In this document: positions 44,539 to 63,270 of the stretch, one piece after another | Layout of the letters: the number at the start of each line of letters is the position of its first letter | How positions within the stretch are numbered: the stretch's first letter is position 1 | Assembly: GCA_938038785.1 (NCBI GenBank) | Contig: CALHTB010000021.1 | Location: 6,279 to 70,278, forward strand | Direction: 5' to 3' | DNA: 64,000 bases | Origin: an uncultured Acidimicrobiales bacterium | GTDB taxonomy: Bacteria > Actinomycetota > Acidimicrobiia > Acidimicrobiales > SHLQ01 | Notes under the pieces: model-generated | The model's input: the letters and a program-made list of their open reading frames with translations, nothing else | Database searches by the model: none | What the model was told of the DNA's origin: nothing | Translations under genes and position numbers: made by a program

Positions 44539-44562
44539 ACACTTAATCCTACTGAACAGGAC

Positions 44563-44579
44563 GTCCCATTCAACGGGAC
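44563..44579. promoter_or_regulatory. Palindrome in the IclR / gamma-butyrobetaine operon divergent region
   Basis: GTCCC-attcaac-GGGAC within the 79-bp intergenic region. Confidence 0.25.
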
Positions 44580-44617
44580 ACTTGGGAATCTGCTCACCGA
44601 ACACAAGTGGGGTCTCC

Positions 44618-45826: not shown

Positions 45827-45841
45827 GGAAAGTAGATACCA

Positions 45842-46738: not shown

Positions 46739-46743
46739 TCAAC

Positions 46744-47775
46744 ATGAGTGACCTTGAAGACGAGTCAGCAGAGCAGTCCGAGCGAAGCGAATCTGCGATT
46801 GCGAGAGTGACAGTAGAGCGTGCCGCTGTCGTTGGTTGCGGTGTGATCGGTGCTGCGTGGGCCAGCCGAATGCTGCTCAACGGCGTCGACGTCGCCATTA
46901 GCGACCCGTCTGAGAACGCCGAGCAGATCCTCACCGAGGTTCTGGCCAACGCAGTTGCCGCGTACGACGACCTCGGCCTGCCGACCAATCGCCAAGGCAC
47001 CTACCGGATGGCGATGTCGGTTGCTGACGCCGTCACCGACGCGCAGTTCATCCAAGAGAGCGTTCCCGAACGGCCCGACATCAAAGCCGCGGTCCTGGCC
47101 GAGATCGAGGCGGCCGCGCCGGTCGACACGATCATCGGGTCGTCCACCTCGGGCATCAAGCCATCGACCATGCAGGCAACAATGACCAACCCTGAGCGGC
47201 TCGTGGTCGGCCATCCATACAACCCGGTGTACCTGCTGCCGGTGGTCGAGGTCGTCGGTGGCGAACACACTCCCATCGAGGTCATTCGCAAGGCGCAAGG
47301 CATCTATGCGGGCATCGGCATGAAGCCCGTGCACGTGCGCGTTGAGATCGACGCCTTTGTCGGCGACCGCCTGCTCGAAGCCGTGTGGCGCGAGGCGCTA
47401 TGGCTCGTCAATGACGGTGTGGCGACCACCCAAGAGATCGACGACATCATGACCCACGGCTTCGGTCTGCGATGGGCACAGATGGGCTTGTTCGAGACGT
47501 ATCGGGTTGCTGGCGGCGCGGGCGGGTTCCGTCACTTCATCGAACAGTTCGGCCCGACGCTCGAATGGCCGTGGACCAAGCTGATGGATACGCCCGACTT
47601 CACCCCCGAGCTGGTCGACACGCTCGTCGAGCAGAGCGACGCGCAGTCCGGTGAGCACACGATCCGCGAGCTCGAACGAACCCGCGATCAGAACGTTGTC
47701 GGCTTTCTGAAGGTTCTCGAAGCAAACAACTGGGGCGCCGGCACCACAATCGCGGAGCACCGAAACGCCACCTGA
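46744..47775 (+). CDS. L-carnitine dehydrogenase-like 3-hydroxyacyl-CoA dehydrogenase family protein
   Basis: AAVVGCGVIGAAWASRMLLNGVDVAISDPSENAEQILTEVLANA closely resembles the LcdH/CdhA N-terminus as I recall it. C-terminal HAD dimerisation domain. Confidence 0.75.
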   Translation: MSDLEDESAEQSERSESAIARVTVERAAVVGCGVIGAAWASRMLLNGVDVAISDPSENAEQILTEVLANAVAAYDDLGLPTNRQGTYRMAMSVADAVTDAQFIQESVPERPDIKAAVLAEIEAAAPVDTIIGSSTSGIKPSTMQATMTNPERLVVGHPYNPVYLLPVVEVVGGEHTPIEVIRKAQGIYAGIGMKPVHVRVEIDAFVGDRLLEAVWREALWLVNDGVATTQEIDDIMTHGFGLRWAQMGLFETYRVAGGAGGFRHFIEQFGPTLEWPWTKLMDTPDFTPELVDTLVEQSDAQSGEHTIRELERTRDQNVVGFLKVLEANNWGAGTTIAEHRNAT

Positions 47776-48337: not shown

Positions 48338-48580
48338 GTGATGACACGGTGGATGGCCGCGGTTGCACTGTTCGCCGTCGGAGGCATCGTTCGGACGTTT
48401 CTTCGGGGCCCCATTGGAGATGCCTTGGACATTGCCGAAGTCGGCCTCAGTCCTGATGACGACTTCGATCTCTTTGTCTTCGATCTGCCGTTCGGCGTTC
48501 TGATCTTCGGGTCGTTGATTTTGGGATGGGTGATGAATCAGGGCGCTGCCGTCCAGGCCCAGACCGAGGACATCGTCTAG
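48338..48580 (+). CDS. Small two-TM membrane protein
   Basis: 80 aa. WMAAVALFAVGGIV and LPFGVLIFGSLILGWV helices. Stop overlaps the GTG of the next gene (TAGTG). Confidence 0.45.
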   Translation: MMTRWMAAVALFAVGGIVRTFLRGPIGDALDIAEVGLSPDDDFDLFVFDLPFGVLIFGSLILGWVMNQGAAVQAQTEDIV

Positions 48581-49050
48581 TGCCACCTGAGTCGGTTCCG
48601 GGATGGATCGTGGTTCATCTCGATGCACTACTGCGCGAGCGGAATATGACCGCGACCGAGCTCGCCGAGCGCATCGGCATCACTCAGGCGAACGTGTCGA
48701 TCTTGAAGACAGGCAAGGCCAAAGCAATACGGTTCACGACCCTCATGGCGATCTGTGACGTGCTCAGCTGTCAGCCCGGCGACCTTCTGTCGTTCGAACG
48801 TGATGGGTCGTCCAGTCCCCAAGACGGTTCGGCTCGCGTCGGCGGTGGAGGCGTGAAGTTACTCGATTCAGGAGATCGACCTGTCGCCGTCATCAAGGTA
48901 ATGAGGCAGCTCGGAGGTCTCGGACTACGAGAAGCAAAGGAGCTGGTCGAGGGGGCTCCTTGTGTTGTCTTGACCGGAATGGAGAAGGCCGACGCGTACT
49001 CGGCCATGGTGAAGTTGCGCTCGGCTGGCGCCACGGTGGAGCCGATGTAA
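48580..49050 (+). CDS. YozG-like XRE-family HTH regulator fused to a ribosomal protein L7/L12 C-terminal-like domain
   Basis: IVVHLDALLRERNMTATELAERIGITQANVSILKTGKAKAIRFTTLMAICDVLSCQPGDLLSFE is near-collinear with B. subtilis YozG. After a Gly/Ser linker, PVAVIKVMRQLGGLGLREAKELVEGAPCVVLTGMEKADAYSAMVKLRSAGATVE parallels the L7/L12 CTD ([26 protein letters not shown]...AEALKKALEEAGAEVE). Confidence 0.65.
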   Translation: MPPESVPGWIVVHLDALLRERNMTATELAERIGITQANVSILKTGKAKAIRFTTLMAICDVLSCQPGDLLSFERDGSSSPQDGSARVGGGGVKLLDSGDRPVAVIKVMRQLGGLGLREAKELVEGAPCVVLTGMEKADAYSAMVKLRSAGATVEPM

Positions 49051-52352: not shown

Positions 52353-53930
52353 ATGTCCACCTATGACGGAACCGTTCGAGCGAGCAGCCACATGGTGGCG
52401 AGTGCTGATCAGCTGGCCACAACCGCTGGCAATGCGATGTTCGCTGCAGGCGGAAACGCCGTCGACGCAGCCATCGCCACCAATGCGGTTATCACGGTCG
52501 TCGGGCCGCACCTGTGTGGCATGGGCGGAGACCTCTTTGCCCTCGTCTACGCCGGGGGCGAGGTGTTCTCGCTGAACTCGAGCGGCTGGGCCGGTTCGGG
52601 TGCATCGGCCGACGAGCTCCGCGCCGAGGGCCTGACCGAGATGCCTTACCGTCACGACATACGGTCGGTGACGGTGCCGGGGTGTGTTGATGGTTGGCTT
52701 GCGCTGCACGAGCGATTCGGCTCGTTGCCACTCATGCAGATTCTCGAGCCCGCCCAGCGTTTGGCCGCGAATGGCTTTCCTGCGGGGCCGCCGCTCACGG
52801 GCGGGTTGGCCTCGTTGGATGAAGCCAGCCGAGCACAACTCCATGAGATGGCGAACCAATCGAACAACGTCGGTGATCGCATCCGCCGGCCCGGTGTCGC
52901 GGCAGCGCTTGCGGGCATTGCCGAGTCTGGGCGCTCAGCGTTCTACGGCGGTGCCTTTGGAGCAGGGCTGATCGAGCTGGGGAAGGGCTTGTTCACTGAG
53001 GACGATCTCGCGACCCCGATCGCTCGATGGGAAGAGCCACTCACCACGACAGCGTTTGGCGTCGAACTGTCGACCGCAAGCCCGAACAGCCAGGGCTACC
53101 TCGCCTTGGCGGGCGCTCGGCTCGCCGAGCAGCTCGACCTTCCCGACGCCGACGATGCGCGGTGGGCCCACCTTCTCGCCGAAGCGGCCAAGGCGGCCGG
53201 GCGAGATCGTCCAACGCAGCTCTTCGAAGGCGCGGGCGGCTCGGCGATCATCGAGGAGATTGCAGGCCGCGTCGGTGAGATCGATGCGGACGTGGCGTCG
53301 ACCTCGCCCGCTCCGGGCCGCGATGGAGACACGACCTACCTCTGCACCGCCGGCAGGGGAGTCGACGGTCAAATGATGGCGGTCTCGCTCATCCAATCGA
53401 ATGCGGCCGGGTTCGGAAGCCACCTTGTCGAACAGAACACTGGCATCAACCTGCACAACCGTGGGCTTGGGTTCAATCTGACGCCCGGCCACCCGGCGGA
53501 AGTGGCACCCGGACGACGACCACCGCACACACTCGTACCAGCGATTGCCGTTCGCAATGGCGAGCTGTTGTCGGTGTTCGGAACGATGGGTGGTGACGCG
53601 CAACCGCAGATCTTGCTGCAGCTCATCGTGCGTATGTTTCATCACGAGCAAACGCCAGGCGTGGCGATCAACGCTGGACGTTGGGCGTTGCGCGGCGCGG
53701 CGACCGGGTTCGATGCTTGGGCAACACCACTCGATCTCCTGCTGGCCGTTGAGGGCCAGACGCCAGCTAGTTGGGACTCGGCTCTGGCCGATCGAGGTCA
53801 CCGCACCGAGCGGCTCGACGTCAACGACTCACGATTTGGGCACGCACACGCAATCGTGGTCGAACCAACCGGCATGCTCGCAGGCGCGGCCGATCCGCGA
53901 ACGATCATTGGCAGCTGCGCCGGCGGCTAA
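52353..53930 (+). CDS. ggt: Gamma-glutamyltransferase
   Basis: 525 aa. GGNAVDAAIA, the GDTTYL autoprocessing Thr block, and TMGGDAQPQ. Confidence 0.9.
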   Translation: MSTYDGTVRASSHMVASADQLATTAGNAMFAAGGNAVDAAIATNAVITVVGPHLCGMGGDLFALVYAGGEVFSLNSSGWAGSGASADELRAEGLTEMPYRHDIRSVTVPGCVDGWLALHERFGSLPLMQILEPAQRLAANGFPAGPPLTGGLASLDEASRAQLHEMANQSNNVGDRIRRPGVAAALAGIAESGRSAFYGGAFGAGLIELGKGLFTEDDLATPIARWEEPLTTTAFGVELSTASPNSQGYLALAGARLAEQLDLPDADDARWAHLLAEAAKAAGRDRPTQLFEGAGGSAIIEEIAGRVGEIDADVASTSPAPGRDGDTTYLCTAGRGVDGQMMAVSLIQSNAAGFGSHLVEQNTGINLHNRGLGFNLTPGHPAEVAPGRRPPHTLVPAIAVRNGELLSVFGTMGGDAQPQILLQLIVRMFHHEQTPGVAINAGRWALRGAATGFDAWATPLDLLLAVEGQTPASWDSALADRGHRTERLDVNDSRFGHAHAIVVEPTGMLAGAADPRTIIGSCAGG

Positions 53931-54952
53931 ACACCGCTCAGGCTCGTCGAAGCGACACGAGCCGAGACCCGAGCGAAGACCTCAGCGGTGGTCGCAAAAT
54001 CATCCTCGTCGTGGGGAATGTCGAGGATGAGCGTGCGGTGACCGCGAGCCCAATACGACGTGAGCTCGGCTGCCACTTCATCGAAGTCACCAACGAGGTA
54101 CGGACAGAACGTGTTGTAGTTCTGGAACGGGCCAAGCCAATACGCGTTGCCTCCAGCTGCCGACTCGTCGGCGAGCTTCGACAGGGTGGCGTGCCATTGG
54201 GAGTCTGACTTTGCCATCGCCATCTCATGGAGCATCTCGCCCCGGCGATCAGGCGGGAACCGTTCGTGGGCGATGCGCCAGGCGTCTTCGCTTCGCTCTC
54301 GGGCAATGATGCCAACACGTATCCCGGTGGCGGTCCCAGTGGCCGGCGCGGTTGTCTCCTGGCCAGCTGGCTCCGGATACTGAATCGCAGTCGCTCCCAA
54401 GACGCTGGCCGTTGCTAGCCCTGCATCCGATGAGCCCGACATGAGTAAGCCGGGTTGTAGCTCGACCGGCATTGGAGGGGCAAGCTTCAAGGTGTTCGCG
54501 GTGTACCACTCGCCCTCTACCGAAACCGTCTCACCGGCCGTCAAACCAAGAACGATTTCGGTGAACTCTCGCAGCCGGTCGTATCTGCGATCGTGTGGCG
54601 TGGTATCACCGATCGATTCCAGGTCGCCGCGAAATCCGCCAGCGATCATGTTCAGATGCACGCGCCGCTCGTAGAGATGGGCAATGGACGACAACATCTT
54701 GGCAACTCCGTATGGAGGCATTGCCGTTGGCTGCACCGCAACGAGTGGCGACACTGACGTCGTCGCCTTGATGATCTCCGTTGCGACTAACCAAGGGTCG
54801 ATCAAGCTGTGGTCGTAGTAGACGAGAATGCCGTCGTAGTCGTAGTCCTGACACCAACCTGAGATTTTCCGTACACGGCCGAGATAGTCGGGTCGGTCGA
54901 TCTTGCTTGACTGAGGGCAGGTCGAGAAGACCTCGAATCGCTCCATGCTCAT
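53927..54952 (-). CDS. LLM-class (luciferase-like) flavin-dependent oxidoreductase
   Basis: 342 aa from ATG 54952 (MSMERFEVFSTCPQS...YDGILVYYDH...). TIM-barrel LLM pattern similar to the SsuD/SfnG group. ATGA overlap with the upstream stop. The long N-terminal extension in the track is rejected. Confidence 0.75.
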   Translation of the reverse strand: MSMERFEVFSTCPQSSKIDRPDYLGRVRKISGWCQDYDYDGILVYYDHSLIDPWLVATEIIKATTSVSPLVAVQPTAMPPYGVAKMLSSIAHLYERRVHLNMIAGGFRGDLESIGDTTPHDRRYDRLREFTEIVLGLTAGETVSVEGEWYTANTLKLAPPMPVELQPGLLMSGSSDAGLATASVLGATAIQYPEPAGQETTAPATGTATGIRVGIIARERSEDAWRIAHERFPPDRRGEMLHEMAMAKSDSQWHATLSKLADESAAGGNAYWLGPFQNYNTFCPYLVGDFDEVAAELTSYWARGHRTLILDIPHDEDDFATTAEVFARVSARVASTSLSGV

Positions 54953-55818
54953 ACCATTACCTTTCGTGCCTTGATGACGTCGATCCATCGATCTCGGGCG
55001 GACACCGAGATCATTCCGTTCTCGTTGCGTAGATGCCCCGGCGACGCGTCCGACTCGTCGCCAATCGCGACTTCGATCAGGTCGAAGAGCTCTCCGTCGA
55101 TCCGTGCTCGAGGGACGGTCCAAGGGCTTGTGAATGGACGGAAGTCGGCGGCGCGGACGTGGGCGTCGATCTCCGATGCCGGGGCTGCCCAGTCGATCAT
55201 CCCTTCGTTGGGCTGTCCTCGTCCGAAATACTGCCGGCGCGTCAACTCTTGAGGCGTATGTGGAACAGAGCCAGGGTCCTCCGCAAGCTGATCGAGCAAC
55301 GCAGCGACGAGCCGCAACCCACGGCTGGCGCACTCCGCCGACAGTGAGAGGCCGGTCGCGTTGTCACGAATCGAGAATCGATCCTCGTAGGTGAGATGAC
55401 CAGCGTCGTACTCCGGCGTCATTTGATGGAGGCTCACGCCGTACTCTCGCCACCCAAGCGCCACCGCCCAGCTAGGAGCATTGATCCCCGCCGCTTCGGG
55501 CAGCGGTCCCGGGTGCAGATTCCACGCCCCCACTTCGAAGACATCAAGAACCTCGGTGCACACCTTCGGAAGCGAGTGCACATTGAGCAAGACGTCAGGA
55601 GCCGCTGCCTCAACCACACGAGCGGAGTCGGGTCGGCTCAACTCGCGGGCGTCCATCAAGGGCACAGCCATGTCGCTGGCAATGGAGCGCATCGCAGTCC
55701 CAGCGTCAGTCGGTGACGTCGCCACCAACACCAGTTCATGCTCTGAACGCTCGATCAACCTGAGGGCTCGCTGACCAGCGGACTCATCGGCGGCGAGGAT
55801 GATTCGCAATCCGCTCAC
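54949..55818 (-). CDS. Formyltransferase (Fmt/PurN-fold with C-terminal Fmt-like domain)
   Basis: LLNVHSLPK...NLHPGPLPEAAGINAPSWAVALG...HQMTPEYDAGHL preserves the N...H...D catalytic pattern of N10-formyl-THF transferases. GTG start overlaps the upstream stop (GTGA). Confidence 0.7.
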   Translation of the reverse strand: MSGLRIILAADESAGQRALRLIERSEHELVLVATSPTDAGTAMRSIASDMAVPLMDARELSRPDSARVVEAAAPDVLLNVHSLPKVCTEVLDVFEVGAWNLHPGPLPEAAGINAPSWAVALGWREYGVSLHQMTPEYDAGHLTYEDRFSIRDNATGLSLSAECASRGLRLVAALLDQLAEDPGSVPHTPQELTRRQYFGRGQPNEGMIDWAAPASEIDAHVRAADFRPFTSPWTVPRARIDGELFDLIEVAIGDESDASPGHLRNENGMISVSARDRWIDVIKARKVMV

Positions 55819-56927
55819 CGTGGTACCGCCGACACGGGGTTGATGAGGAACTCACCTTCGAGCGGGCTGAGCAATGCACGTCCCTGCTGGAAGCAATCGA
55901 GCAACTTTGGCTTCGACGTGTGAATCGAGGTCGCCTCAGACGAGGTCACGGTGCACCCGAGGTCGCTCGCCGGGTAGATCAGGTCGAGGGGCAAGCGGCC
56001 TTCGACTATCACTGCGTTATTGATCTGGGCTTGCGTTAGTGCTTGCAGCAGCACCGTCCGTCGATGCGCGTCGACGGCCATCATCTGAACGACTTCGGCG
56101 TGACCGAACTCGTTGATGTCCATGATGTACCAGCCGAGGGTGCGACCCCGAGGGTTGAGGACCGCATGGGCGATGATCGAGCTATTCGGCCTGCTTCGCT
56201 CGATCAATCTCCAGGTGTGTTCGAGATGACCGATGTCGGAGAAGTCGGGGTGCAGATCGGCGGCGGTGAGCATGTTCGACAGGTTGTCGGCGACATGTTC
56301 GGTCGTAAGCTCCTCGATCGAGATGCCACGGGGACTCTCCGGAAGTTCTGCATGCAATGATCGTCGAAGAAGTCGCCCGGCCAAACGTTCCCCTTGCTGG
56401 GCCACGTCGGTCGCCCGGCTAATGGAGATGCGCGTGCGGCTTGCAAGTTGCTGACTCCGCGCCGTACCTCGTTGAAGAACCTTCCGCCATCGCAGGCTTG
56501 AGGCCGGGAGTTGTTCAAAACCAGCGGCTTGAAGTGCGACGCGCCCAGCAGTGTTCGAACGGTCCACGAACACAAGATCTTGCGGTCCCTCGATGACAGC
56601 ACGAAGAAGATGTACTGCGGCCAGCGACGACCGGGCATTCGGGTCGACCATCAAGTGAGAAGTTGAGGCGGACCACAAACGTTCACCGCTGAAGACCACC
56701 GGCTGACAGCCCACGAGCACAAACCCGTGCACGTCACCGTCTTGTTCGAAGACCAGTGACGGGCTGGCGTGGGCAGAGTATCGGTGGTTGAGGATCAGCT
56801 CCGGCACCTTGACGGTGTACCCCCGAACGACCTCGTCGACCGTGTTGCCAATATGGCCTTGGGCGTTGAGGTGTACCTGCGCCATCTGCTCAAGGTCGGC
56901 TTCACGGACCGCTCGAACTTCACCCAT
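55815..56927 (-). CDS. Protein of unknown function with GNAT-like N-terminal half
   Basis: 370 aa. VRAVREADLEQMAQVH...VHGFVLVG...HLMVDPNARSSLAAVHLLRAVIEG looks like a divergent GNAT fold. The C-terminal half is unassigned. Confidence 0.4.
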   Translation of the reverse strand: MGEVRAVREADLEQMAQVHLNAQGHIGNTVDEVVRGYTVKVPELILNHRYSAHASPSLVFEQDGDVHGFVLVGCQPVVFSGERLWSASTSHLMVDPNARSSLAAVHLLRAVIEGPQDLVFVDRSNTAGRVALQAAGFEQLPASSLRWRKVLQRGTARSQQLASRTRISISRATDVAQQGERLAGRLLRRSLHAELPESPRGISIEELTTEHVADNLSNMLTAADLHPDFSDIGHLEHTWRLIERSRPNSSIIAHAVLNPRGRTLGWYIMDINEFGHAEVVQMMAVDAHRRTVLLQALTQAQINNAVIVEGRLPLDLIYPASDLGCTVTSSEATSIHTSKPKLLDCFQQGRALLSPLEGEFLINPVSAVPR

Positions 56928-57171
56928 TGGTCACCTCGGAAGACGCGAGCAACTCCCCGAACGCTTTCGTCATGCGCCGTGGCGTGCGCAGATCGTCCAG
57001 GTTCAGATCGCCCACGGTCAGCTTCTGGCCCGTTCGTTGCTCGACTGCCAGCAGCAGCTCGACGAAGCGCAGCGAATCGAGCTCGCCGGTGTCGATGAGG
57101 TCGTGGTCGGGGCTATCGATGAGCAGAAAGAGCTCGTCTTCGAGGATTTCGATAATGGTCTCGAGGGTCAT
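56920..57171 (-). CDS. Stand-alone carrier protein (PCP / DltC-like)
   Basis: 83 aa. DTGELDSLRFVELLLAVE contains the DSL phosphopantetheine-attachment motif. ATGA overlap with the adenylation gene. Confidence 0.75.
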   Translation of the reverse strand: MTLETIIEILEDELFLLIDSPDHDLIDTGELDSLRFVELLLAVEQRTGQKLTVGDLNLDDLRTPRRMTKAFGELLASSEVTNG

Positions 57172-58751
57172 TTGGATACCTCTTTCTGCAGGAATCGTGA
57201 TCGAAGTTCAGGCCGGTCGATCTTGCCGTTCACGTTCTTGGGCAATTCATCGAGCTGAATCCACCGATGGGGAAGCATGTACTTGGGGACCAGACCGCCC
57301 AATGCCTTCGCAAGCCGTGCGGGCCTGATCGGCTCGGGAGCGGTATAGGCAGCTGCAATCGCCGAACCATCGACGTGGTCGAGCTCGATAGCGACGATGG
57401 CCGAGTCGGTCAGTTCGTCGAGCGTTTGAAGAGCCGACTCGATTTCGCCAAGCTCGATTCGGTAGCCGCGGCTCTTGATTTGGGTGTCCTCGCGGCCAAT
57501 GAAGGTTGCAACGTTGTGCTCGTCGAGCGAGGCGAGATCGCCCGTCTTGTAGACACGTCGGTTGGGAAGAAGATCCGTCCTGAACACGGCGGCGGTCTTC
57601 GTCGGGTCCTTCCAATAGCCAGGGCTGAGGCCAACACCTTCGATGTACAGGTTTCCAATCTCTCCAGGGTCGGCATGGCTACCGTCGTCGCGCAGTACGA
57701 GTAGCGCCTCCCCAGCACATGCAACGCCAATGGGAATCGAAGCTGTTGGGTCGTCTGGTTTGTGCTCAACTCGATGCCAGCTACTTGCGATCGTGGCTTC
57801 GGTTGGTCCGTAGAGATTCGTGAATTCGACGTGAGGCATGGCCGTCATGAGCGCGATGAGCGTGGGCGTTGGGAGCACTTCTCCGCACCACATCAGACGC
57901 CGCAAGCTAGCAAAGGGTTCTTGGGGCAACTCGCCGACGCGAGTCAAGTGATTGAGTGCCGACGGTACGGAGAACCATTGGGTGAGTTGGTTGGTGTGGA
58001 TCCACTCGATCAGGTCGGCAGGGTTGGCGTTGACGTTCTTCGGTACTGGGTGCAGCGTGGCTCCTGCTGCGAACGTTGCATAGATATCCATCGTGGACAG
58101 ATCGAAGTGCAGTGGTGAGTGGCCCGAGATGTGGTCGTCGGCGAGGTAACAAAAGTGTTCGACTACCCAATCGACGTACGCCAACACGTTTTCGTGGGTG
58201 ATGATCACTCCCTTTGGTTCACCCGTTGACCCCGAGGTGAACAGAATGTGAGCGGTGTCCCTTGGCGTGATATCGGGTCGCCCAAGAGCTACCTCGCCGT
58301 CGTATGCGTCAACTTCGGCTGCGCCGAACGCAGGCTCGACCGGCCACGTGGGCAGTGCTCCTTCGATCCAACCAAGAGCGACGTTGGGGTTCGCAGCCAG
58401 TGACGCCTCGACCGTCGTGATCGCAGAAGCATCGGCAATGACGACGGCTGGGTCAGCCGACGTGAGGATGCGGGTAATTCTTGCCGCTGGTGAATCTGGA
58501 TCGATCGGAACGTAGGGTGCTCCGAGCTTGGCCGCGGCAAGCATCGCCGCGATAGCACCGGCACCCTTAGGCATGGCGATCGCAACCCGATCGCCCGCAC
58601 CCACACCGAGGTCGATCAGCAGTCGAGCAATCTGGTTCGACCGCCGGTGCAGGTCTCGATAGGTCGATGTCGAGTCTTCCTCGCACACCGCGACCTTGTT
58701 GGGCGCATCTTTCGCCCAACCTACAACGTCGTCAAATAACAGCCTCGCCAT
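57168..58751 (-). CDS. Stand-alone amino-acid adenylation enzyme (DltA / NRPS A-domain family)
   Basis: TSGSTGEPKGV (A3), HFDLS (A4, with the Asp that binds an alpha-amino group), YGPTE, YKTGDL, GREDTQIKSRGYRIELGEIE (A8) and NGKIDR (A10). Confidence 0.9.
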   Translation of the reverse strand: MARLLFDDVVGWAKDAPNKVAVCEEDSTSTYRDLHRRSNQIARLLIDLGVGAGDRVAIAMPKGAGAIAAMLAAAKLGAPYVPIDPDSPAARITRILTSADPAVVIADASAITTVEASLAANPNVALGWIEGALPTWPVEPAFGAAEVDAYDGEVALGRPDITPRDTAHILFTSGSTGEPKGVIITHENVLAYVDWVVEHFCYLADDHISGHSPLHFDLSTMDIYATFAAGATLHPVPKNVNANPADLIEWIHTNQLTQWFSVPSALNHLTRVGELPQEPFASLRRLMWCGEVLPTPTLIALMTAMPHVEFTNLYGPTEATIASSWHRVEHKPDDPTASIPIGVACAGEALLVLRDDGSHADPGEIGNLYIEGVGLSPGYWKDPTKTAAVFRTDLLPNRRVYKTGDLASLDEHNVATFIGREDTQIKSRGYRIELGEIESALQTLDELTDSAIVAIELDHVDGSAIAAAYTAPEPIRPARLAKALGGLVPKYMLPHRWIQLDELPKNVNGKIDRPELRSRFLQKEVSK

Positions 58752-58838: not shown

Positions 58839-59468
58839 TTAGGGGCGTTCGCCGAAGTTTGGGCCCTCGGTGCGGGTGCGCTTGAGTTCCCAGAAGCCGT
58901 CCATAGTGCTCATGGTGACCATGGCATCCCAGAGAGCGAGACCTTCGTCGCCTTGAGGTGCTCGGCTGATGACCGGGCCAAAGATGCCGATCTTGCCTGA
59001 GTCAGAGGGGAAGGCAATGATCGGTGTGCCGACGTCTTGTCCGACCAGGGCAAGTCCTTTGTCCATTTTTTCGCGGATGACCGCGTCGAAAGACTCGTCG
59101 TCGTAGGCCGCTGCAAGCGCGGTGTCGAGGCCTGCATTCGAGAGCAGACGCTCGGCCGACACAGCCTCGTCGGCTACATCGCTGACCCCGTCGTGATGGA
59201 TATTGCGACCGCATTCCCAATAGAACTGGAACGCCGCGTCCATGCCATCGGCAGCCTTCACGGCTTCAAACACGCGCAACAGTTTGTGCGTGTGTTCGAC
59301 GGGAGCGAAGTAGTCGCTGTCCTCGGGCGGCTGGTTCTTGAACAGCAAGCTGATCGGTTGCCACGTGATATTCAGATCACGCTCTGGCTGCACAACGTCG
59401 ACGACCCAACGAGCCGTCACCCAACACCAAGGTCAAATCGGATCTACCCAGAATTCAATGTCTGTCAT
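58839..59468 (-). CDS. DsbA-like thiol oxidoreductase (Rv2466c family) interrupted by an in-frame TGA at the first Cys of the CxxC motif (selenoprotein candidate or pseudogene)
   Basis: Hand translation from ATG 59468 gives MTDIEFWVDPI-TGA-PWCWVTARWVVDVV..., which then continues as the 193-aa track ORF. The family N-terminus, as I recall it for Rv2466c, is FWFDPLCPWCWITSRW. C-terminal FWELKRTRTEGPNF also matches the family. Confidence 0.6.
59400..59418 (-). other. Small hairpin 15 nt downstream of the in-frame TGA (possible SECIS-like element)
   Basis: RNA GACGGC-UCGUUGG-GUCGUC: a 6-bp stem (one G-U pair) with a 7-nt G-containing loop. Drawn by eye only. Confidence 0.25.
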
Positions 59469-59659: not shown

Positions 59660-60376
59660 ATGGGACTTCTTGCGGTTGATCGGGTTGCGGCGGTGCTCGA
59701 AGCACTTGGTTCGGGGGCGAGGACGCTGCCTGAGGTGTGTGACGGTGCCGGGCTTCCGAAGTCGACCGCATCGCGGCTCATTGCCGCACTTGAGGAACAC
59801 GGCCTTGTGCACCGAGCCAGTGACGGGTCTCTGTCACTCGGCGCCACCCTTGGTTCCCTCGGCTCGCAACCGCCAGCGCTCGGCCGGTTGATCGACGCGG
59901 CCCGAACGCCAGCGCGCCGGTTGGCTGAAGCTACCGACGAGGCTGTGTGTCTGTCGGTGATCGCCGCTGGTGAGACCCACACCGTGTTCCAAGTCGATAC
60001 GCCAAAGGCCGTGTTCGCTCAGGATTGGGTCGATCGACGATGGCCCATCGAAGAGACCGGTTCGGCGATCTCGATTTTGTCGACCTGGTCACCTACTGAG
60101 GTAGCTGACGTCCTCGGTCCATTCGGCGCTCGCACACGGAAGAAGTTGTACGAGGCCATTGATGTCGCCCGGCGTCAACCGATCTCCTGGTCGGTCGACA
60201 ACTACGTCGATGGCTTGACGAGCGTCGCTGCTCCCATCGTCTCGGATCGAGGTCGGGCAACAAGCGCGTTGATCATCTACGGACCGAGCTACCGGTTCCC
60301 GACGACGAAGATGCGATTGAGGGTCGAGAGCTTGCTGGCGGGCGCTGCAGCCGAAATAGGGAAGGACCTGTACTGA
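59660..60376 (+). CDS. IclR-family transcriptional regulator
   Basis: VDRVAAVLEALGSGARTLPEVCDGAGLPKSTASRLIAALEEHGLV HTH plus an effector domain. Stop overlaps the next start (TGATG). Confidence 0.85.
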   Translation: MGLLAVDRVAAVLEALGSGARTLPEVCDGAGLPKSTASRLIAALEEHGLVHRASDGSLSLGATLGSLGSQPPALGRLIDAARTPARRLAEATDEAVCLSVIAAGETHTVFQVDTPKAVFAQDWVDRRWPIEETGSAISILSTWSPTEVADVLGPFGARTRKKLYEAIDVARRQPISWSVDNYVDGLTSVAAPIVSDRGRATSALIIYGPSYRFPTTKMRLRVESLLAGAAAEIGKDLY

Positions 60377-61893
60377 TGGCCCGACGAGGACGAGCACGTT
60401 CGACTGCTACCGAACCACGAGTTCGTCAGCTCCCGTGGCGCCAGGTAGAGATGACTCACGGACCACTACCGATTCTCGACGAGGAGGGTGTCGACCGAAT
60501 CCACAATGCGTCGATTCGGGTGCTCGAAGACCTCGGCATCGAACTGTGGAGCGAGGAAGCCCGGCAACTGTTCGCCGACGCGGGGGCGATAGTTGACGGT
60601 GAAGTCGTGCGGGTTGGTCGCGACATCATCGAGGAAGCGTTGACGACGGCGCCGAGCCGCTTCAATCTCACTAGTCGCAACGAGGCCAAACAGATCGAGC
60701 TTGGCGGCAACAAAATCGCGTTCGGCTTGGTCGCAGGCCCACCGTCGATCCACGACGAGATCCGTGGACGTCGACCGTCGAACATGGACGACTACAAGAA
60801 CTTCACGAAGCTGGCGCACTACTTCAACGCCATCCACATCATTGGTAACCAGGTGGCATCACCGCTCGAGCTGCCGGCCAATAACCGGCACCTCGACACC
60901 TACCTGGCAAACCTCACGCTGTCGGACCTCTGCTTTCACACACTGTCGATCGGGCGCGGTCGGGCCCGAGACGGCATTGAGATGATGGCGATTAGCCGAG
61001 GCATCTCGGTCGAGGAGATGGCCGAGTCACCCGGCGTTATCACGGTCATCAATGTGAACTCACCTCGTCGGTTCGACGAGGAGATGGCCAATGGCCTGAT
61101 GGAGATGTCGTCGAACGGCCAGGTCGTGTCGGTCACGCCCTTCACGCTCATGGGAGCGATGACCCCGGTGACGCTCGCCGCGGGCCTGACCCAACAAAAC
61201 GCCGAGGCGCTCTTCGGGATTGCACTCACTCAACTCACCAAGCCCGGTGCGCCAGTGGTCTACGGATCGTTCACCTCGAACGTCGACATGCGTTCTGGCG
61301 CCCCGGCCTTTGGTACCCCCGAACACACCAAAGCCAACGTGGTGTCGGGGCAACTCGCCCGTCGATACGGCCTGCCGTACCGCAGCTCGAACTCGAGCGC
61401 ATCGAATGTCGTGGACGCCCAGGCCGCGTACGAAACGCAGATGTCGCTGTGGGGGAGTGTGCTCGGCGGTACCAACCTGCTGTATCACGCCGCGGGCTGG
61501 ATGGAAGGCGGCCTTCAGGCCAGCTACGAAAAGCTCGTGCTCGATGTCGAGATGCTCCAGCAGATGATGGAGTTCCTGACCCCGATCGACCTCAGCGACG
61601 AAGCCCTGGCATTCGACGCCATGGAGCGAGTTCCAACCGGCGGCCATTTCTTCGGCGACGAGCACACGCTGGAGCGCTATGAGCATGCGTTCTACTCTCC
61701 GCTCATTTCCGACTGGCAGAACAACGGCGCCTGGCAAGAAGCCGGCAGTCTGACAGCTACCCAACGCGCCACGGCAGTGTGGCAAACCGCGCTCGACGAC
61801 TACAGCGAGCCTTCCATCCCCGACGATCGACGCGAGGCACTCGATGACTACGTAGCTCGCCGCAAGGAAGCAATCGGTGACGGCGAACCATGA
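60376..61893 (+). CDS. MttB-superfamily (trimethylamine methyltransferase-like) protein, non-pyrrolysine type
   Basis: 505-aa uninterrupted ORF. N-terminal PILDEEGVDRIHNASIRVLEDLGIELWSEEARQLFADAGA and the overall length are typical of COG5598 members. No in-frame TAG. Confidence 0.8.
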   Translation: MARRGRARSTATEPRVRQLPWRQVEMTHGPLPILDEEGVDRIHNASIRVLEDLGIELWSEEARQLFADAGAIVDGEVVRVGRDIIEEALTTAPSRFNLTSRNEAKQIELGGNKIAFGLVAGPPSIHDEIRGRRPSNMDDYKNFTKLAHYFNAIHIIGNQVASPLELPANNRHLDTYLANLTLSDLCFHTLSIGRGRARDGIEMMAISRGISVEEMAESPGVITVINVNSPRRFDEEMANGLMEMSSNGQVVSVTPFTLMGAMTPVTLAAGLTQQNAEALFGIALTQLTKPGAPVVYGSFTSNVDMRSGAPAFGTPEHTKANVVSGQLARRYGLPYRSSNSSASNVVDAQAAYETQMSLWGSVLGGTNLLYHAAGWMEGGLQASYEKLVLDVEMLQQMMEFLTPIDLSDEALAFDAMERVPTGGHFFGDEHTLERYEHAFYSPLISDWQNNGAWQEAGSLTATQRATAVWQTALDDYSEPSIPDDRREALDDYVARRKEAIGDGEP

Positions 61894-62600
61894 GGCCCCG
61901 CGTTCACCGCTACGGTCGGTTCATGATTGCTCGGCGTACAGTTCTCGCAGCAGGTGCTGGCCTCACTCTCGGAGCATGCGGGACCGCCAGCAGAGCGGAC
62001 AGGGATTCCCTGCTGGCGGCAAGCGCAACCTCCACGACGACCGTTGACGCGCTCGCCGCCGATACGACGAGTCAAGAGCCCATTGTCATCGCGCTCACGT
62101 TGCACCGACTCCTCGACGATGGCGAGTTGGGAACGATGCGAACTTCGGGCGAGCTCGACGACATCGGTCAGCGCATCAACGAGATTTGGGCGCAAGCCAA
62201 CATTGTCTTCGAACCACTTCTCGTACGCGATCTCGTCGTTCCCACGGCGGTGCTGGCTCCAATCGTCTCAAACGGGAACATCGATCCGTTGATCGACGCC
62301 TTTCGTTCATCTATCGAGATTTCGGATCCCGGAGTGTTTAACGGCTTCTTCTTGAGCTCAGCCTTCGGGGTTAATGGGTTTGCACCATCGGGGGTCCGAG
62401 CCTTCTTCGTTGTCGATGAGCCGACGGTGCATGATGAGCGGGTCACCAGCCACGAGATCGGCCATTTGCTCGGGCTGCACCACAACGCTGACGATCCCGA
62501 GCGGCTGATGTTCTCGGGCACCAACGGAACCACGCTCGATTCGGTCGAGCAAGTCGTGGCCCGCTACATCGCACAAGGAGTTCTCGATGGACAACGCTGA
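61890..62600 (+). CDS. Tat/lipoprotein-signal metzincin-type zinc metalloprotease
   Basis: MIARRTVLAAGAGLTLGAC (twin-Arg plus lipobox). HEIGHLLGLHH (HExxHxxGxxH) followed by LMF (a possible Met-turn). The start may be 61923. Confidence 0.65.
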   Translation: MRPRVHRYGRFMIARRTVLAAGAGLTLGACGTASRADRDSLLAASATSTTTVDALAADTTSQEPIVIALTLHRLLDDGELGTMRTSGELDDIGQRINEIWAQANIVFEPLLVRDLVVPTAVLAPIVSNGNIDPLIDAFRSSIEISDPGVFNGFFLSSAFGVNGFAPSGVRAFFVVDEPTVHDERVTSHEIGHLLGLHHNADDPERLMFSGTNGTTLDSVEQVVARYIAQGVLDGQR

Positions 62601-63270
62601 GTTTCGAGCTCGGTGGTCGCGCCGACTTCTGCTTTTGTTGGGCGGTGTGGTGCTGTTGGCGGCGTGTGGCAGCGACGACGTGCCGAGCGAATCCGCCAAC
62701 GACCCAACCGCGCCAGCAACCTCCTCTGTCTCTGCGACGGCTCTCGATTCGTCGGTGACAATTCCAAACGACGGTGGCTCGCTCGAAGGACACACCCCGC
62801 GGGGCTTCAATGGCATGGGTACCGGGTTGTTTGCGGGCGACGAGCTCAACTCGAATTTTCCGCCTGACGACGGGGTGCAAATTTGGCTGACATTCGCGTT
62901 CCCGGCCGATGTCGCAACCGCCGAGACCGCCGAACTACGTTCCGACGCGTTGACCGTTCGTGGCAACCCGTTTGAGGCGCTCGGTCCGCTCGAGATTGCT
63001 CCTGTTCAGTTCGCCGAGTTCAGCCCGGCCGTAGTCGACCTTGAGCCGGTCGGCCCGACGGTGACGTGCCCGATGCCGGAAGGATCATCGTTTCGATGCG
63101 ACGCCACGGATGCGGTTCAGACGGCCCTCGACGCGGGGGACGAACGTGTACAACTTCGTCTTCGCTTTGCTGGCGTCTCTGATCCCGACGGCGAACAGGA
63201 CATGGCATTGTTCTTCCTTAGTGATTCGAATACCAACGAACCGGGCATCTTCGAACTCGTAATTGAGTAA
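62587..63270 (+). CDS. Lipoprotein of unknown function
   Basis: RRLLLLLGGVVLLAACGSDD lipobox. The remainder is unassigned. Confidence 0.5.
   Translation: MDNAEFRARWSRRLLLLLGGVVLLAACGSDDVPSESANDPTAPATSSVSATALDSSVTIPNDGGSLEGHTPRGFNGMGTGLFAGDELNSNFPPDDGVQIWLTFAFPADVATAETAELRSDALTVRGNPFEALGPLEIAPVQFAEFSPAVVDLEPVGPTVTCPMPEGSSFRCDATDAVQTALDAGDERVQLRLRFAGVSDPDGEQDMALFFLSDSNTNEPGIFELVIE

What the first reader, a model, noticed from the sequence alone, without database searches (positions are those of the whole stretch)
53927..58751. Five-gene translationally coupled cassette: stand-alone A domain, carrier protein, GNAT-like protein, formyltransferase and LLM oxidoreductase
All four junctions overlap (ATGA at 57168-57171, 8 nt at 56920-56927, GTGA at 55815-55818, ATGA at 54949-54952), so the cassette reads as one operon. 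The adenylation enzyme has the FDLS Asp characteristic of amino-acid (not fatty-acid) activation and pairs with an 83-aa DSL carrier protein, as in DltA/DltC. There is no condensation or thioesterase domain and no DltB/DltD. Instead there is a formyltransferase with the N/H/D catalytic pattern (formyltransferase domains are known to act on aminoacyl-S-carrier intermediates in some NRPS initiation modules), a 370-aa GNAT-like protein that could be the transferase to a final acceptor, and a luciferase-like monooxygenase. This combination does not match any pathway I know. It may make an N-formylated or oxidised aminoacyl product, or modify a cell-envelope component.
Basis: partly seen in the sequence, partly recalled or inferred. 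Interest (0 to 1): 0.7.

Follow-up and report, generated by a model that had tools for sequence, protein, structure and literature searches.

The report
Carrier-protein amino-acid tailoring and transfer cassette
Five overlapping genes in an uncultured marine actinobacterium form a rare, self-contained unit that most likely loads a small amino acid onto a carrier protein, formylates and oxygenates it, and passes it to an unknown acceptor through a previously undescribed double-GNAT transferase.

Summary
Five minus-strand genes (53927-58751) are joined by ATGA, ATGGGTGA, GTGA and ATGA overlaps. They encode:
- a stand-alone amino-acid adenylation enzyme;
- an 83-aa phosphopantetheine carrier;
- a 370-aa protein with no Pfam or NCBIfam match, which a pLDDT-96.6 model shows to be a tandem GNAT;
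- a formyltransferase with an intact Asn/His/Asp triad;
- an SsuD-like luciferase-like monooxygenase (LLM).

The set recurs in about 11 metagenomic loci, in five gene orders and with unrelated flanks, so it is an autonomous module. It was found in one of 185,579 species genomes (an Ilumatobacter MAG), in no cultured organism, and in no searched paper.

Independent links tie the parts together:
- a natural carrier::tandem-GNAT fusion;
- tandem-GNAT relatives next to adenylation and carrier genes in polysaccharide loci, one fused to a MurJ flippase;
- LLM relatives beside stand-alone A/carrier/PPTase genes;
- single proteins in Ruegeria, Shinella and Deinococcus with Fmt-A(LLM-interrupted)-PCP architecture.

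Best reading: a dissociated NRPS-like initiation module with a new GNAT-type off-loader. The amino acid, the oxygenation site and the acceptor remain inferred. I rate it a new variant of a known kind, of moderately high interest.

The parts
57168..58751 (-). Stand-alone amino-acid adenylation enzyme (527 aa). Pocket code is D-L-M-F-M-C-L-I-A-K, with Asp217 and A10 Lys510.
   Evidence: TIGR01733 scores 360.1 bits against a cutoff of 317.4; DltA models fall below cutoff. Best single-domain PDB relatives are PltF (1e-77) and DltA (3e-64). The pocket was read from alignments to DltA and PltF. It is invariant in 8 orthologues and in a broader ~50%-identity family.
56920..57171 (-). 83-aa acidic phosphopantetheine carrier protein; the attachment Ser33 lies in GELDSLRF.
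   Evidence: PF00550 scores 35.1 bits against a cutoff of 20.8. DltC models fall below cutoff. The Ser is conserved in all 9 orthologous carriers. Start and stop overlap the neighbouring genes.
55815..56927 (-). 370-aa tandem-GNAT protein ('GNAT2'), the proposed carrier-protein-dependent acyl/aminoacyl transferase (off-loader).
   Evidence: No Pfam or NCBIfam hit. The AF2 model has pLDDT 96.6 and pTM 0.93. Foldseek gives probability 1.0 to Eis-like tandem GNATs and N-myristoyltransferase, TM 0.46-0.58. Ten close homologues were found among 5.8e9 proteins. The profile finds 1547 representative clusters. Fusions exist with PP-binding, MurJ, a FemAB-like domain and ATP-grasp.
54949..55818 (-). 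289-aa formyltransferase-fold enzyme (N- and C-terminal domains) with Asn100/His102/Asp138.
   Evidence: PF00551 and PF02911 both score above cutoff. Closest solved relatives are the ArnA formyltransferase domain (2e-20), GDP-perosamine N-formyltransferase and Fmt; the triad aligns. It is invariant in 8 orthologues. A cassette-specific clade of about 27 clusters shares >=50% identity.
53927..54952 (-). 341-aa luciferase-like (SsuD-like, presumably FMNH2-dependent) monooxygenase.
   Evidence: PF00296 scores 93.6 bits. SsuD models score about 100 bits, far below cutoffs above 500, and there is no TIGR04020 hit. It is the most conserved cassette protein, 61-75% identity. Nearest annotated relatives (40-46% identity) sit beside stand-alone A, carrier, PPTase, halogenase and NRPS genes.

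Best explanation
The cassette is a dissociated ('type II') NRPS-like initiation and tailoring module with its own off-loading enzyme.

1. The adenylation enzyme activates a small, neutral alpha-amino acid. Its pocket is a hybrid of DltA (D-Ala) and PltF (L-Pro). It then thioesterifies the amino acid onto the phosphopantetheine arm on Ser33 of the 83-aa carrier.
2. The formyltransferase uses N10-formyl-tetrahydrofolate to N-formylate the tethered amino acid.
3. The SsuD-like LLM uses reduced flavin and O2 to oxygenate the tethered substrate. The alpha-carbon is the most plausible site, as in the MOX domains of MtaG/MelG.
4. The tandem GNAT takes the acyl-S-carrier as donor in place of acyl-CoA and transfers the modified acyl group to an amine (or hydroxyl) of an acceptor encoded outside the cassette.

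Shown:
- gene structure;
- family and fold assignments;
- conserved catalytic residues;
- conserved co-occurrence;
- natural fusions.

Inferred:
- the substrate amino acid;
- that formylation and oxygenation occur on the carrier;
- the order of steps;
- the site of oxygenation;
- the acceptor.
For: **Operon structure.** Four start/stop overlaps.

**A and carrier.** A passes the amino-acid adenylation model with Asp217 and Lys510. The carrier has its Ser.

**Co-occurrence.**
- A-Fmt-LLM co-occur in all 11 loci.
- Carrier plus GNAT2 are present in all but one locus.
- There are five gene orders and the flanks are unrelated.

**GNAT2-carrier link.**
- The carrier gene lies directly upstream of GNAT2 in the window-type loci, L005 and L011.
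- P0190 is a natural PP-binding::GNAT2 fusion next to an AMP-binding gene.
- GNAT2 relatives sit next to A-PCP-TE (L015) and ACP plus an adenylate-forming enzyme (L021).

**Fmt-A-LLM-carrier link.**
- Ruegeria and Shinella encode one 1538-1540-aa protein with Fmt, A(N), LLM, A(C) and PCP.
- Deinococcus encodes a FemAB-like GNAT, an Fmt 41% identical to the window's, and an A(LLM)-PCP.

**LLM subfamily.** Members are found beside stand-alone A, carrier, PPTase, halogenase and P450 genes in four cultured bacteria.

**Precedents.**
- The LgrA F domain formylates Val-S-PCP (established knowledge; LgrA is also the top PDB match of the A enzyme).
- The MtaG/MelG A-MOX-A domain alpha-hydroxylates a carrier-bound glycyl unit (PMC11411415).
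Against: - No enzyme was assayed.
- The window's LLM is not a member of the MOX family TIGR04020 and shows no significant BLAST similarity to those domains. The MOX analogy is therefore functional, not homologous.
- The formyltransferase is closer to sugar-nucleotide and tRNA formyltransferases than to the NRPS F domain: no LgrA chain appears among its PDB hits.
- The GNAT motif that binds the CoA pyrophosphate is degenerate (RSSLAA), and no acceptor is identifiable.
- One locus (L023) has A-Fmt-LLM without a dedicated carrier or GNAT2.
- The cassette encodes no PPTase, flavin reductase, thioesterase or transporter.
Confidence: 0.5

Rival explanations
1. Dlt/Alm-like envelope modification. The cassette aminoacylates a cell-envelope glycan or lipid-linked precursor, possibly with a formylated amino acid. 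The tandem GNAT acts on the cytoplasmic face, as FemX-type enzymes act on lipid II. This shares steps 1-3 of the best explanation but fixes the acceptor.
For: - The pocket shares 7 of 10 positions with B. subtilis DltA, including the DltA Cys.
- GNAT2 relatives lie in polysaccharide loci. L015 has Bac_transf, GT28, a FemAB-like gene, A-PCP-TE and a MurJ::GNAT2 fusion. L021 is a Shinella EPS locus.
- The Fmt/A(LLM)-PCP relatives lie in glycan loci with flippase, Wzy and GT2 genes.
- In L004 an OatA-like Acyl_transf_3-SGNH gene is divergent from the cassette, and an Acyl_transf_3 gene lies near it in L010.
Against: - No glycosyltransferase, flippase or membrane acyltransferase is conserved next to the cassette itself.
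- The window flanks are a gamma-glutamyltranspeptidase and an Rv2466c-like DsbA.
- All five proteins look soluble.
- DltA and DltC models are below cutoff, and no DltB or DltD was found in the part of the window that was scanned.
Confidence: 0.3
2. Specialised-metabolite building block. The cassette makes a modified aminoacyl unit that is attached to a small molecule, a ribosomal peptide (RiPP) or a non-ribosomal peptide.
For: - In L010 the cassette follows lasso-peptide genes on the same strand: Asn-synthase-like cyclase, PqqD and Transglut_core3.
- In L023 A-Fmt-LLM lie 5 kb from an NRPS C-A-PCP-TE, TauD, ornithine cyclodeaminase and a BTAD regulator.
- LLM relatives lie in halogenase, P450 and NRPS clusters.
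Against: - Most cassette loci, the window included, have no other biosynthetic, regulatory or export gene nearby.
- The two suggestive contexts differ from each other.
Confidence: 0.3
3. Oxidative deamination route. Alpha-hydroxylation of the N-formyl-aminoacyl-S-carrier gives a carbinolamide that collapses to formamide plus an alpha-ketoacyl-S-carrier (glyoxylyl or pyruvoyl). The tandem GNAT then transfers that group.
For: This is the chemistry proposed for MtaG/MelG, where the TE releases the alpha-keto acid (PMC11411415). The Deinococcus A(LLM)-PCP relative carries a glycine-type pocket, D-I-L-Q-L-G-M-V-W-K, read; the Gly assignment is from memory of the specificity-code tables.
Against: The window LLM is not of the MOX family. 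Spending a formyl group only to discard it seems wasteful. There is no direct evidence.
Confidence: 0.12
4. Formyl-thioester route. The formyltransferase formylates the phosphopantetheine thiol itself, as in 10-formyl-THF dehydrogenase and HypX. The GNAT then uses formyl-S-carrier as the acyl donor.
For: FDH and HypX/HoxX N-terminal domains appear among the PDB relatives of the formyltransferase, at E of about 1e-5. Locus L005 has two carrier genes.
Against: This leaves the always-present, pocket-conserved adenylation enzyme without a role. Most loci have a single carrier. ArnA and Fmt, which formylate amines, are much closer relatives.
Confidence: 0.06

Closest known systems
DltA/DltC (D-alanyl carrier protein ligase and carrier) and Vibrio AlmE/AlmF/AlmG
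   Same: A stand-alone adenylation enzyme loads a small amino acid on a small dedicated carrier, and a separate transferase moves it to an acceptor, with no condensation domain. The pocket shares D, L, M, M, C, A and K with B. subtilis DltA.
   Different: It scores below the DltA and DltC equivalog cutoffs. There is no MBOAT (DltB), DltD or LpxL-type AlmG. The transferase is a tandem GNAT. A formyltransferase and an LLM are added.
NRPS formylating initiation module (LgrA F-A-PCP; F-A-PCP loading of oxazolomycin/conglobatin-type lines)
   Same: A formyltransferase-fold catalyst works together with an A domain and carrier, and an N-formyl-aminoacyl-S-carrier is the expected intermediate. LgrA is the top PDB match of the A enzyme.
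   Different: The parts are separate proteins. The formyltransferase is nearer to ArnA, sugar formyltransferases and Fmt than to the LgrA F domain. There is no downstream condensation domain.
Fmt-A(LLM-interrupted)-PCP proteins annotated 'MupA/Atu3671 family LLM' (Ruegeria conchae, Shinella zoogloeoides; split form in Deinococcus actinosclerus), and MtaG/MelG A-MOX-A modules
   Same: The same four activities (formyltransferase, adenylation, LLM monooxygenase, carrier) are combined. In Deinococcus there is also a tandem-GNAT-fold FemAB-like gene, and its Fmt is 41% identical to the window's.
   Different: Their LLM is TIGR04020 and is inserted in the A domain. The window LLM is a free-standing SsuD-like subfamily with no TIGR04020 hit. 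They feed a type I PKS in glycan loci. Their A pocket is glycine-type. I found no paper describing these fused proteins.
Type II NRPS tailoring systems (e.g. PltF/PltL/PltE/PltA)
   Same: Stand-alone A, stand-alone carrier and trans-acting flavoenzymes work on the tethered amino acid. PltF is the best single-domain structural relative of A (1e-77). LLM relatives sit in such clusters.
   Different: There is no ACAD-type dehydrogenase or halogenase. Formylation is added. Off-loading is by a tandem GNAT rather than a KS, C or TE.
Tandem GNAT acyltransferases (Eis-like proteins, N-myristoyltransferase, MshD, FemX family, clavulanate Orf14)
   Same: Two fused GNAT folds. Foldseek probability is 1.0, TM 0.46-0.58. 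Relatives hit Acetyltransf_9 weakly.
   Different: Sequence identity is at most 16%, and there is no Pfam or NCBIfam hit for the window protein or most relatives. The donor is inferred to be an acyl-carrier protein, based on a natural PP-binding fusion, rather than acyl-CoA or aminoacyl-tRNA.

Membership tests
Amino-acid adenylation domain (ANL superfamily, TIGR01733) | Score above the curated cutoff, with core motifs including the A4 Asp that binds the alpha-amino group and the A10 Lys | tested here: met
   360.1 bits against a cutoff of 317.4. TSGSTGEPKG, NLYGPTE, YKTGD, GREDTQIKSRGYRIELGEIE, Asp217 and Lys510 are all present and conserved in orthologues.
DltA (TIGR01734 / NF003417) | Equivalog score above cutoff | tested here: not met
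   313.8 bits against 559.85, and 316.6 against 476.
DltA (TIGR01734 / NF003417) | Partner genes dltB (MBOAT) and dltD | tested here: not met
   Pfam scans found no MBOAT or DltD domain in the cassette or among the ORFs scanned between 44 and 64 kb. Only ten large ORFs were scanned in the rest of the window.
DltC (NF003464 / TIGR01688) | Equivalog score above cutoff | tested here: not met
   35.4 bits against 68, and 28.1 against 52.35.
Phosphopantetheine carrier protein (PF00550) | Domain score above cutoff and a conserved Ser in the DSL motif | tested here: met
   35.1 bits against 20.8. Ser33 lies in GELDSLRF and is invariant in 9 orthologous carriers. Actual phosphopantetheinylation cannot be tested here.
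Formyltransferase fold (PF00551 + PF02911) | Both domains above cutoff, with the Asn/His/Asp catalytic triad | tested here: met
   47.6 and 29.0 bits, both above cutoff. WNLHPG and YDAG align with the ArnA FNLHGS and ADAG motifs. Asn100, His102 and Asp138 are invariant in 8 orthologues.
Methionyl-tRNA formyltransferase (TIGR00460) / ArnA (NF005998) | Equivalog score above cutoff | tested here: not met
   63.4 bits against 201.5, and 80.8 against 777.
NRPS F domain (LgrA type) | Closest sequence relationship to F domains of NRPS initiation modules | tested here: not met
   No LgrA chain appears among the PDB sequence hits at E<=1e-3; ArnA, WbkC-type enzymes and Fmt are the best.
Luciferase-like monooxygenase (PF00296) | Domain score above cutoff | tested here: met
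   93.6 bits against 27.9.
Alkanesulfonate monooxygenase SsuD (TIGR03565) | Equivalog score above cutoff | tested here: not met
   101.6 bits against 518.2. In the alignment, the SsuD residues I recall as catalytic (His228, Cys54; numbering from memory) align with Gly and Leu.
MupA/Atu3671 natural-product LLM (TIGR04020; the MOX domain of A-MOX-A modules) | Domain score above cutoff | tested here: not met
   There is no hit at E<=0.01 for the window LLM, whereas the Ruegeria and Deinococcus fused proteins score about 480 bits against a cutoff of 244. There is no significant BLAST match.
Tandem GNAT acyltransferase | Two GNAT folds in one chain | tested here: met
   AF2 gives pLDDT 96.6 and pTM 0.93. 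Foldseek gives probability 1.0 to Eis-like tandem GNATs and NMT over about 360-385 aligned columns.
Tandem GNAT acyltransferase | Acyl-CoA pyrophosphate-binding motif Q/R-x-x-G-x-G/A | tested here: inconclusive
   The corresponding segment is R99-S-S-L-A-A. Arg99 is conserved (81% across the family), but the first Gly is Leu. This is compatible with an acyl-carrier donor but proves nothing.
Carrier-protein-dependent transferase (proposed property of the GNAT2 family) | Physical or genetic coupling to a carrier protein | tested here: met
   P0190 is a PP-binding::GNAT2 fusion. The carrier gene is directly upstream of GNAT2 in the window-type loci, L005 and L011. A-PCP-TE overlaps the MurJ::GNAT2 gene in L015. 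Biochemical use of the acyl-carrier as donor cannot be tested here.

The most novel reading that the evidence does not exclude
The tandem GNAT founds a new class of carrier-protein-dependent N-acyltransferases, with about 1500 clusters at 50% identity and no curated family. In this cassette it would install an N-formylated, oxygenated aminoacyl group on a macromolecular acceptor: a protein or peptide N-terminus or lysine, or an envelope glycan. Examples of such a group are an alpha-hydroxy or N-hydroxy formamide, which could act as a metal-binding or reactive 'warhead'. That would be a previously unknown modification system that bypasses both ribosomal and NRPS condensation chemistry.
Probability: 0.2. 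Interest if true: 0.8.

Novelty: new variant of a known kind. Interest (0 to 1): 0.6.

Why it matters
If the model holds, three things follow.
1. There is a new off-loading solution for carrier-protein pathways: a tandem GNAT in place of a C, TE or KS domain. It belongs to a sizeable protein family that currently has no annotation.
2. Formyltransferase, LLM oxygenase, A domain and carrier form a recurrent functional unit. The unit exists both fused (in proteobacterial and Deinococcus glycan/PKS loci) and dissociated (in Acidimicrobiia-like actinobacteria). None of these forms appears to have been studied.
3. The five soluble proteins are compact and directly testable in vitro. They could reveal a new small-molecule or envelope modification in abundant uncultured marine actinobacteria.

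Tried and rejected
- **Low-molecular-weight-thiol idea.** Suggested by the Rv2466c-like DsbA in the window, an MDMPI/DinB gene in L001 and a disulfide reductase in L003. Dropped: the flanks are inconsistent across loci and the A pocket is not Cys-like.
- **L017 LLM-GNAT2 adjacency.** That LLM is not orthologous to the window's and the neighbouring AMP-binding gene is a fatty-acyl type.
- **L023 359-aa ORF as a diverged GNAT2.** Rejected (hhalign probability 0.1). It looks like part of a BTAD/NB-ARC regulator.
- **The '75-aa carrier' called in L011.** It is the frameshifted C-terminus of the A gene.
- **Formyltransferase relatives at ~40% identity.** One example (Actinomycetospora P0082) is not in a cassette, so only the >=50% clade is cassette-specific.
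- **Searches for more loci.**
  - The species-genome scan found 1 locus.
  - The metagenome scan found 2 small ones.
  - The plasmid collection holds no cassette orthologue of A; the best hit is 39% identical.
- **Regulatory signals.** No promoter-like site, no terminator excess over shuffles, and no Rfam hit around the cassette.
- **Literature.** Seven full-text searches for combinations of the five families returned nothing relevant.
- **Shallow-alignment AF2 model (pLDDT 73.6).** Superseded by the deep-alignment model.

Full report
**Observation**

The minus strand of 53927-58751 carries five consecutive ORFs of 527, 83, 370, 289 and 341 codons.
- ATGA at 57168-57171;
- ATGGGTGA at 56920-56927;
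- GTGA at 55815-55818;
- ATGA at 54949-54952.

Each start is preceded by a purine-rich stretch. The fifth gene starts at the ATG at 54952, inside a longer mechanical ORF. The fourth starts at a GTG. Orthologue alignments begin at the same residues.

No sigma-70-like promoter was found around the cassette. Terminator-like sites do not exceed the shuffled expectation, and there is no Rfam element. All five products look soluble.

**What each gene is**

*Adenylation enzyme.* The 527-aa protein passes the curated amino-acid adenylation model (TIGR01733, 360 bits against a cutoff of 317). It fails the DltA equivalogs. It has all core motifs, the alpha-amino-binding Asp217 (FDLS) and the A10 Lys510.

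Its best single-domain solved relatives are the prolyl-carrier ligase PltF (1e-77) and DltA (about 3e-64). Both A domains of LgrA also score highly.

I read the ten specificity positions from the alignments:

| Enzyme | Pocket code |
|---|---|
| Window A | D-L-M-F-M-C-L-I-A-K |
| DltA | D-L-M-T-(L/M)-C-T-V-A-K |
| PltF | D-L-L-Y-L-A-L-V-C-K |

The window pocket is small and fully hydrophobic, a hybrid of a D-Ala and an L-Pro pocket. It retains the Cys that, from my memory of the DltA literature, contributes to D-Ala selection. The code is invariant, apart from M/F and M/I exchanges, in eight cassette orthologues. It is also invariant in sampled members of a much larger ~50%-identity family of stand-alone A enzymes from several phyla.

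*Carrier.* The 83-aa protein is an acidic PP-binding carrier with Ser33 in GELDSLRF. It scores below the DltC cutoffs.

*Formyltransferase.* The 289-aa protein has both formyltransferase domains. Its Asn100/His102/Asp138 triad aligns with that of ArnA and is invariant in orthologues. Its nearest solved relatives are ArnA, a GDP-perosamine N-formyltransferase and Fmt, not the LgrA F domain.

*LLM.* The 341-aa protein is a luciferase-like monooxygenase. It most resembles SsuD but scores far below the equivalog cutoffs, and it is not a TIGR04020 (MupA/Atu3671) member.

*Tandem GNAT.* The 370-aa protein has no Pfam or NCBIfam match. A first model from nine sequences was mediocre (pLDDT 73.6). A model from a 141-sequence alignment reached pLDDT 96.6 and pTM 0.93. 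Against the PDB it matches tandem GNAT proteins over its full length, with probability 1.0 and TM 0.46-0.58. These include Eis-like acetyltransferases and N-myristoyltransferase.

**Conservation and autonomy**

The word-indexed search found only ten close homologues of the tandem GNAT among 5.8 billion proteins. One of 185,579 species genomes has it, an uncultured Ilumatobacter MAG. The JGI metagenome scan added two fragments.

I mapped all five families onto every fetched locus with profiles built here. This gave about 11 distinct cassette loci in five arrangements:

| Arrangement | Loci |
|---|---|
| A-CP-GNAT2-Fmt-LLM | window, L001, L003, L004, L009; fragments L019 and L020 are consistent |
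| CP-GNAT2-A-CP-Fmt-LLM | L005 |
| GNAT2-A-CP-Fmt-LLM | L010; its GNAT2 is only 23% identical but hhalign probability is 99.8 |
| A-Fmt-LLM-CP-GNAT2 | L011, where the A gene is split by a frameshift |
| A-Fmt-LLM alone | L023 |

Flanking genes differ in every case:
- gamma-glutamyltranspeptidase and an Rv2466c-like DsbA in the window;
- an MDMPI/DinB gene and xanthine-dehydrogenase genes in L001;
- an alcohol dehydrogenase in L003;
- an OatA-like acyltransferase in L004;
- recA in L005;
- lasso-peptide genes in L010;
- an NRPS in L023.

The five genes therefore behave as one self-contained, shuffled but co-inherited unit. Its core is A-Fmt-LLM, with a CP-GNAT2 pair attached. All members come from metagenomes or MAGs and none carries a source name.

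**Independent links between the parts**

*GNAT2 and the carrier.* A profile search of 1.84 billion representatives shows the tandem GNAT belongs to a sizeable unannotated family: 1547 clusters at E<=1e-3 and 258 at E<=1e-30. Sampled members have no NCBIfam and only weak Acetyltransf_9 hits. Four fusions are informative:
- PP-binding::GNAT2 (P0190);
- MurJ::GNAT2 (P0157);
- GNAT2::FemAB-like Acetyltransf_6 (P0254);
- GNAT2::ATP-grasp (P0228).

P0190 lies directly after a short AMP-binding gene. The MurJ fusion overlaps an A-PCP-TE gene in a locus that also holds a priming glycosyltransferase, a GT28 gene, a FemAB-like gene and an aminotransferase.

A Shinella EPS locus has the order GNAT2, asnB, ACP, adenylate-forming enzyme, nadE. 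This resembles the S. meliloti asnB-smb20651-smb20650-nadE1 operon; the asnB and nadE1 members are from my memory of the original report. In that operon the ligase loads the ACP (PMC7232532).

Together with the conserved CP-GNAT2 adjacency, this supports an acyl-carrier donor for the family.

*The LLM.* Its nearest annotated relatives (40-46% identity) are on plasmids of Rhizobium, Tritonibacter, Gemmobacter and Streptomyces. They sit beside stand-alone AMP-binding and carrier genes, PPTases, flavin halogenases, acyl-CoA-dehydrogenase-like genes, P450s or an NRPS. NCBIfam treats them the same way as the window LLM, with only sub-threshold SsuD hits.

*The formyltransferase.* Its closest annotated relative (41% identity) is in a Deinococcus actinosclerus polysaccharide locus. 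There it lies between a FemAB-like GNAT and a 1387-aa A(LLM-interrupted)-PCP protein, followed by a PKS.

In Ruegeria conchae and Shinella zoogloeoides the formyltransferase domain is the N-terminus of one 1538-1540-aa protein. Its domain order is Fmt, A(N), LLM, A(C), PCP. That protein sits next to a type I PKS, GT2, a PPTase, and Wzy/flippase genes.

The embedded LLMs are TIGR04020 members (about 480 bits). They are not specifically similar to the window LLM. The four activities are thus combined repeatedly, but with LLMs of different subfamilies.

**Mechanism proposed**

The A enzyme loads a small neutral alpha-amino acid on the carrier. Formylation must come after adenylation, because the pocket keeps the Asp that binds a free alpha-amine. 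Next comes oxygenation by the LLM, using reduced flavin from a housekeeping reductase.

The precedent for an LLM acting on an N-acyl-aminoacyl-S-carrier is the A-MOX-A module of MtaG/MelG, which alpha-hydroxylates a glycyl unit (PMC11411415). The precedent for formylating an aminoacyl-S-carrier is the LgrA F domain (established knowledge).

The tandem GNAT then off-loads the product onto a nucleophile. The order of the Fmt, LLM and GNAT2 steps is not established, and neither is the acceptor.

Two acceptor classes remain open:
- An envelope glycan or lipid-linked precursor. This is favoured by the glycan-locus contexts of GNAT2 and Fmt relatives and by the DltA-like pocket.
- A small molecule or peptide. 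This is favoured by the lasso-peptide and NRPS neighbours in L010 and L023 and by the contexts of the LLM relatives.

Minor rivals are oxidative loss of formamide to give an alpha-ketoacyl donor, and formylation of the Ppant thiol as in FDH/HypX.

**Comparison and novelty**

The cassette works like a Dlt/Alm-type aminoacyl-carrier system combined with an NRPS formylating initiation module and type II NRPS tailoring.
- It fails the curated membership tests for DltA, DltC, Fmt, ArnA, SsuD and TIGR04020.
- It has no condensation, thioesterase, MBOAT or LpxL-type partner.
- No paper in the searchable library mentions the combination, and no cultured organism carries it.

I therefore file it as a new variant of a known kind: carrier-protein-dependent amino-acid tailoring and transfer. 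The genuinely new element is a carrier-linked tandem-GNAT off-loader from an unannotated family.

**Limits**

Nothing was assayed. The substrate call rests on ten pocket positions read from pairwise alignments. The taxonomic assignment (Acidimicrobiia-like actinobacterium) rests on one MAG relative and on actinobacterial-type neighbours: MMPL and an Rv2466c-like gene in the window, and an RpfB-like gene in L010.

Noticed in passing
window 44282-47775 (+): A TauD-family dioxygenase (514 aa, with a long N-terminal extension), a BKACE beta-keto acid cleavage enzyme and a 3-hydroxyacyl-CoA dehydrogenase lie in a row. This is the gene trio typical of carnitine/betaine-type catabolism.
   Followed up: no
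window 59660-63270 (+): An IclR regulator overlaps an MttB-family methyltransferase (667 bits). Two ORFs follow with little or no Pfam signal, one with a faint zinc-metallopeptidase motif.
   Followed up: no
window 48526-49050 (+): A 174-aa protein combines a Cro/C1-type HTH (HTH_26) with a ribosomal protein L7/L12 C-terminal domain. This is an unusual fusion. The gene callers on the source contigs called it shorter, at 134-156 aa.
   Followed up: no
window 53927-53930: The stop of the LLM gene (-) and the stop of the convergent gamma-glutamyltranspeptidase gene (+, 52353-53930) overlap by 4 nt, so the two converging transcription units share their ends.
   Followed up: partly
window 58839-59420 (-): An Rv2466c-like (mycothiol-dependent DsbA-like) gene lies 87 nt upstream of the cassette on the same strand. 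It is not conserved next to the cassette elsewhere, so it is probably not part of it.
   Followed up: partly
L010 2087-7924: In a 6.3-Mb genome the cassette directly follows lasso-peptide-type genes: a 56-aa ORF, an Asn-synthase-like cyclase, PqqD and Transglut_core3. A FemAB-like Acetyltransf_6, an Acyl_transf_3 and a second AMP-binding gene lie downstream.
   Followed up: partly
L023 1-11946: A-Fmt-LLM orthologues occur without a dedicated carrier or tandem GNAT. They lie 5 kb from an NRPS C-A-PCP-TE, TauD, ornithine cyclodeaminase and a BTAD regulator.
   Followed up: partly
L005 2767-6003; L011 8394-9994: L005 carries two closely similar carrier genes, one before the tandem GNAT and one after A. 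In L011 the A gene is split by a frameshift, and the gene caller reported its C-terminal piece as a separate 75-aa protein.
   Followed up: yes
L029 8824-13440; L030 9001-13623; L031 7939-14324: Proteobacterial and Deinococcus glycan/PKS loci encode Fmt-A(LLM-interrupted)-PCP proteins annotated only as 'MupA/Atu3671 family LLM'. The Deinococcus A pocket reads as glycine-type. I found no paper on them.
   Followed up: partly
proteins P0293-P0398, alignment A3: A very large family of stand-alone ~530-aa adenylation enzymes at ~50% identity keeps the same specificity pocket as the cassette enzyme. Members come from Actinomycetospora, Solirubrobacterales, Planctomycetota and many soil metagenomes. 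Their genomic context was not examined.
   Followed up: no
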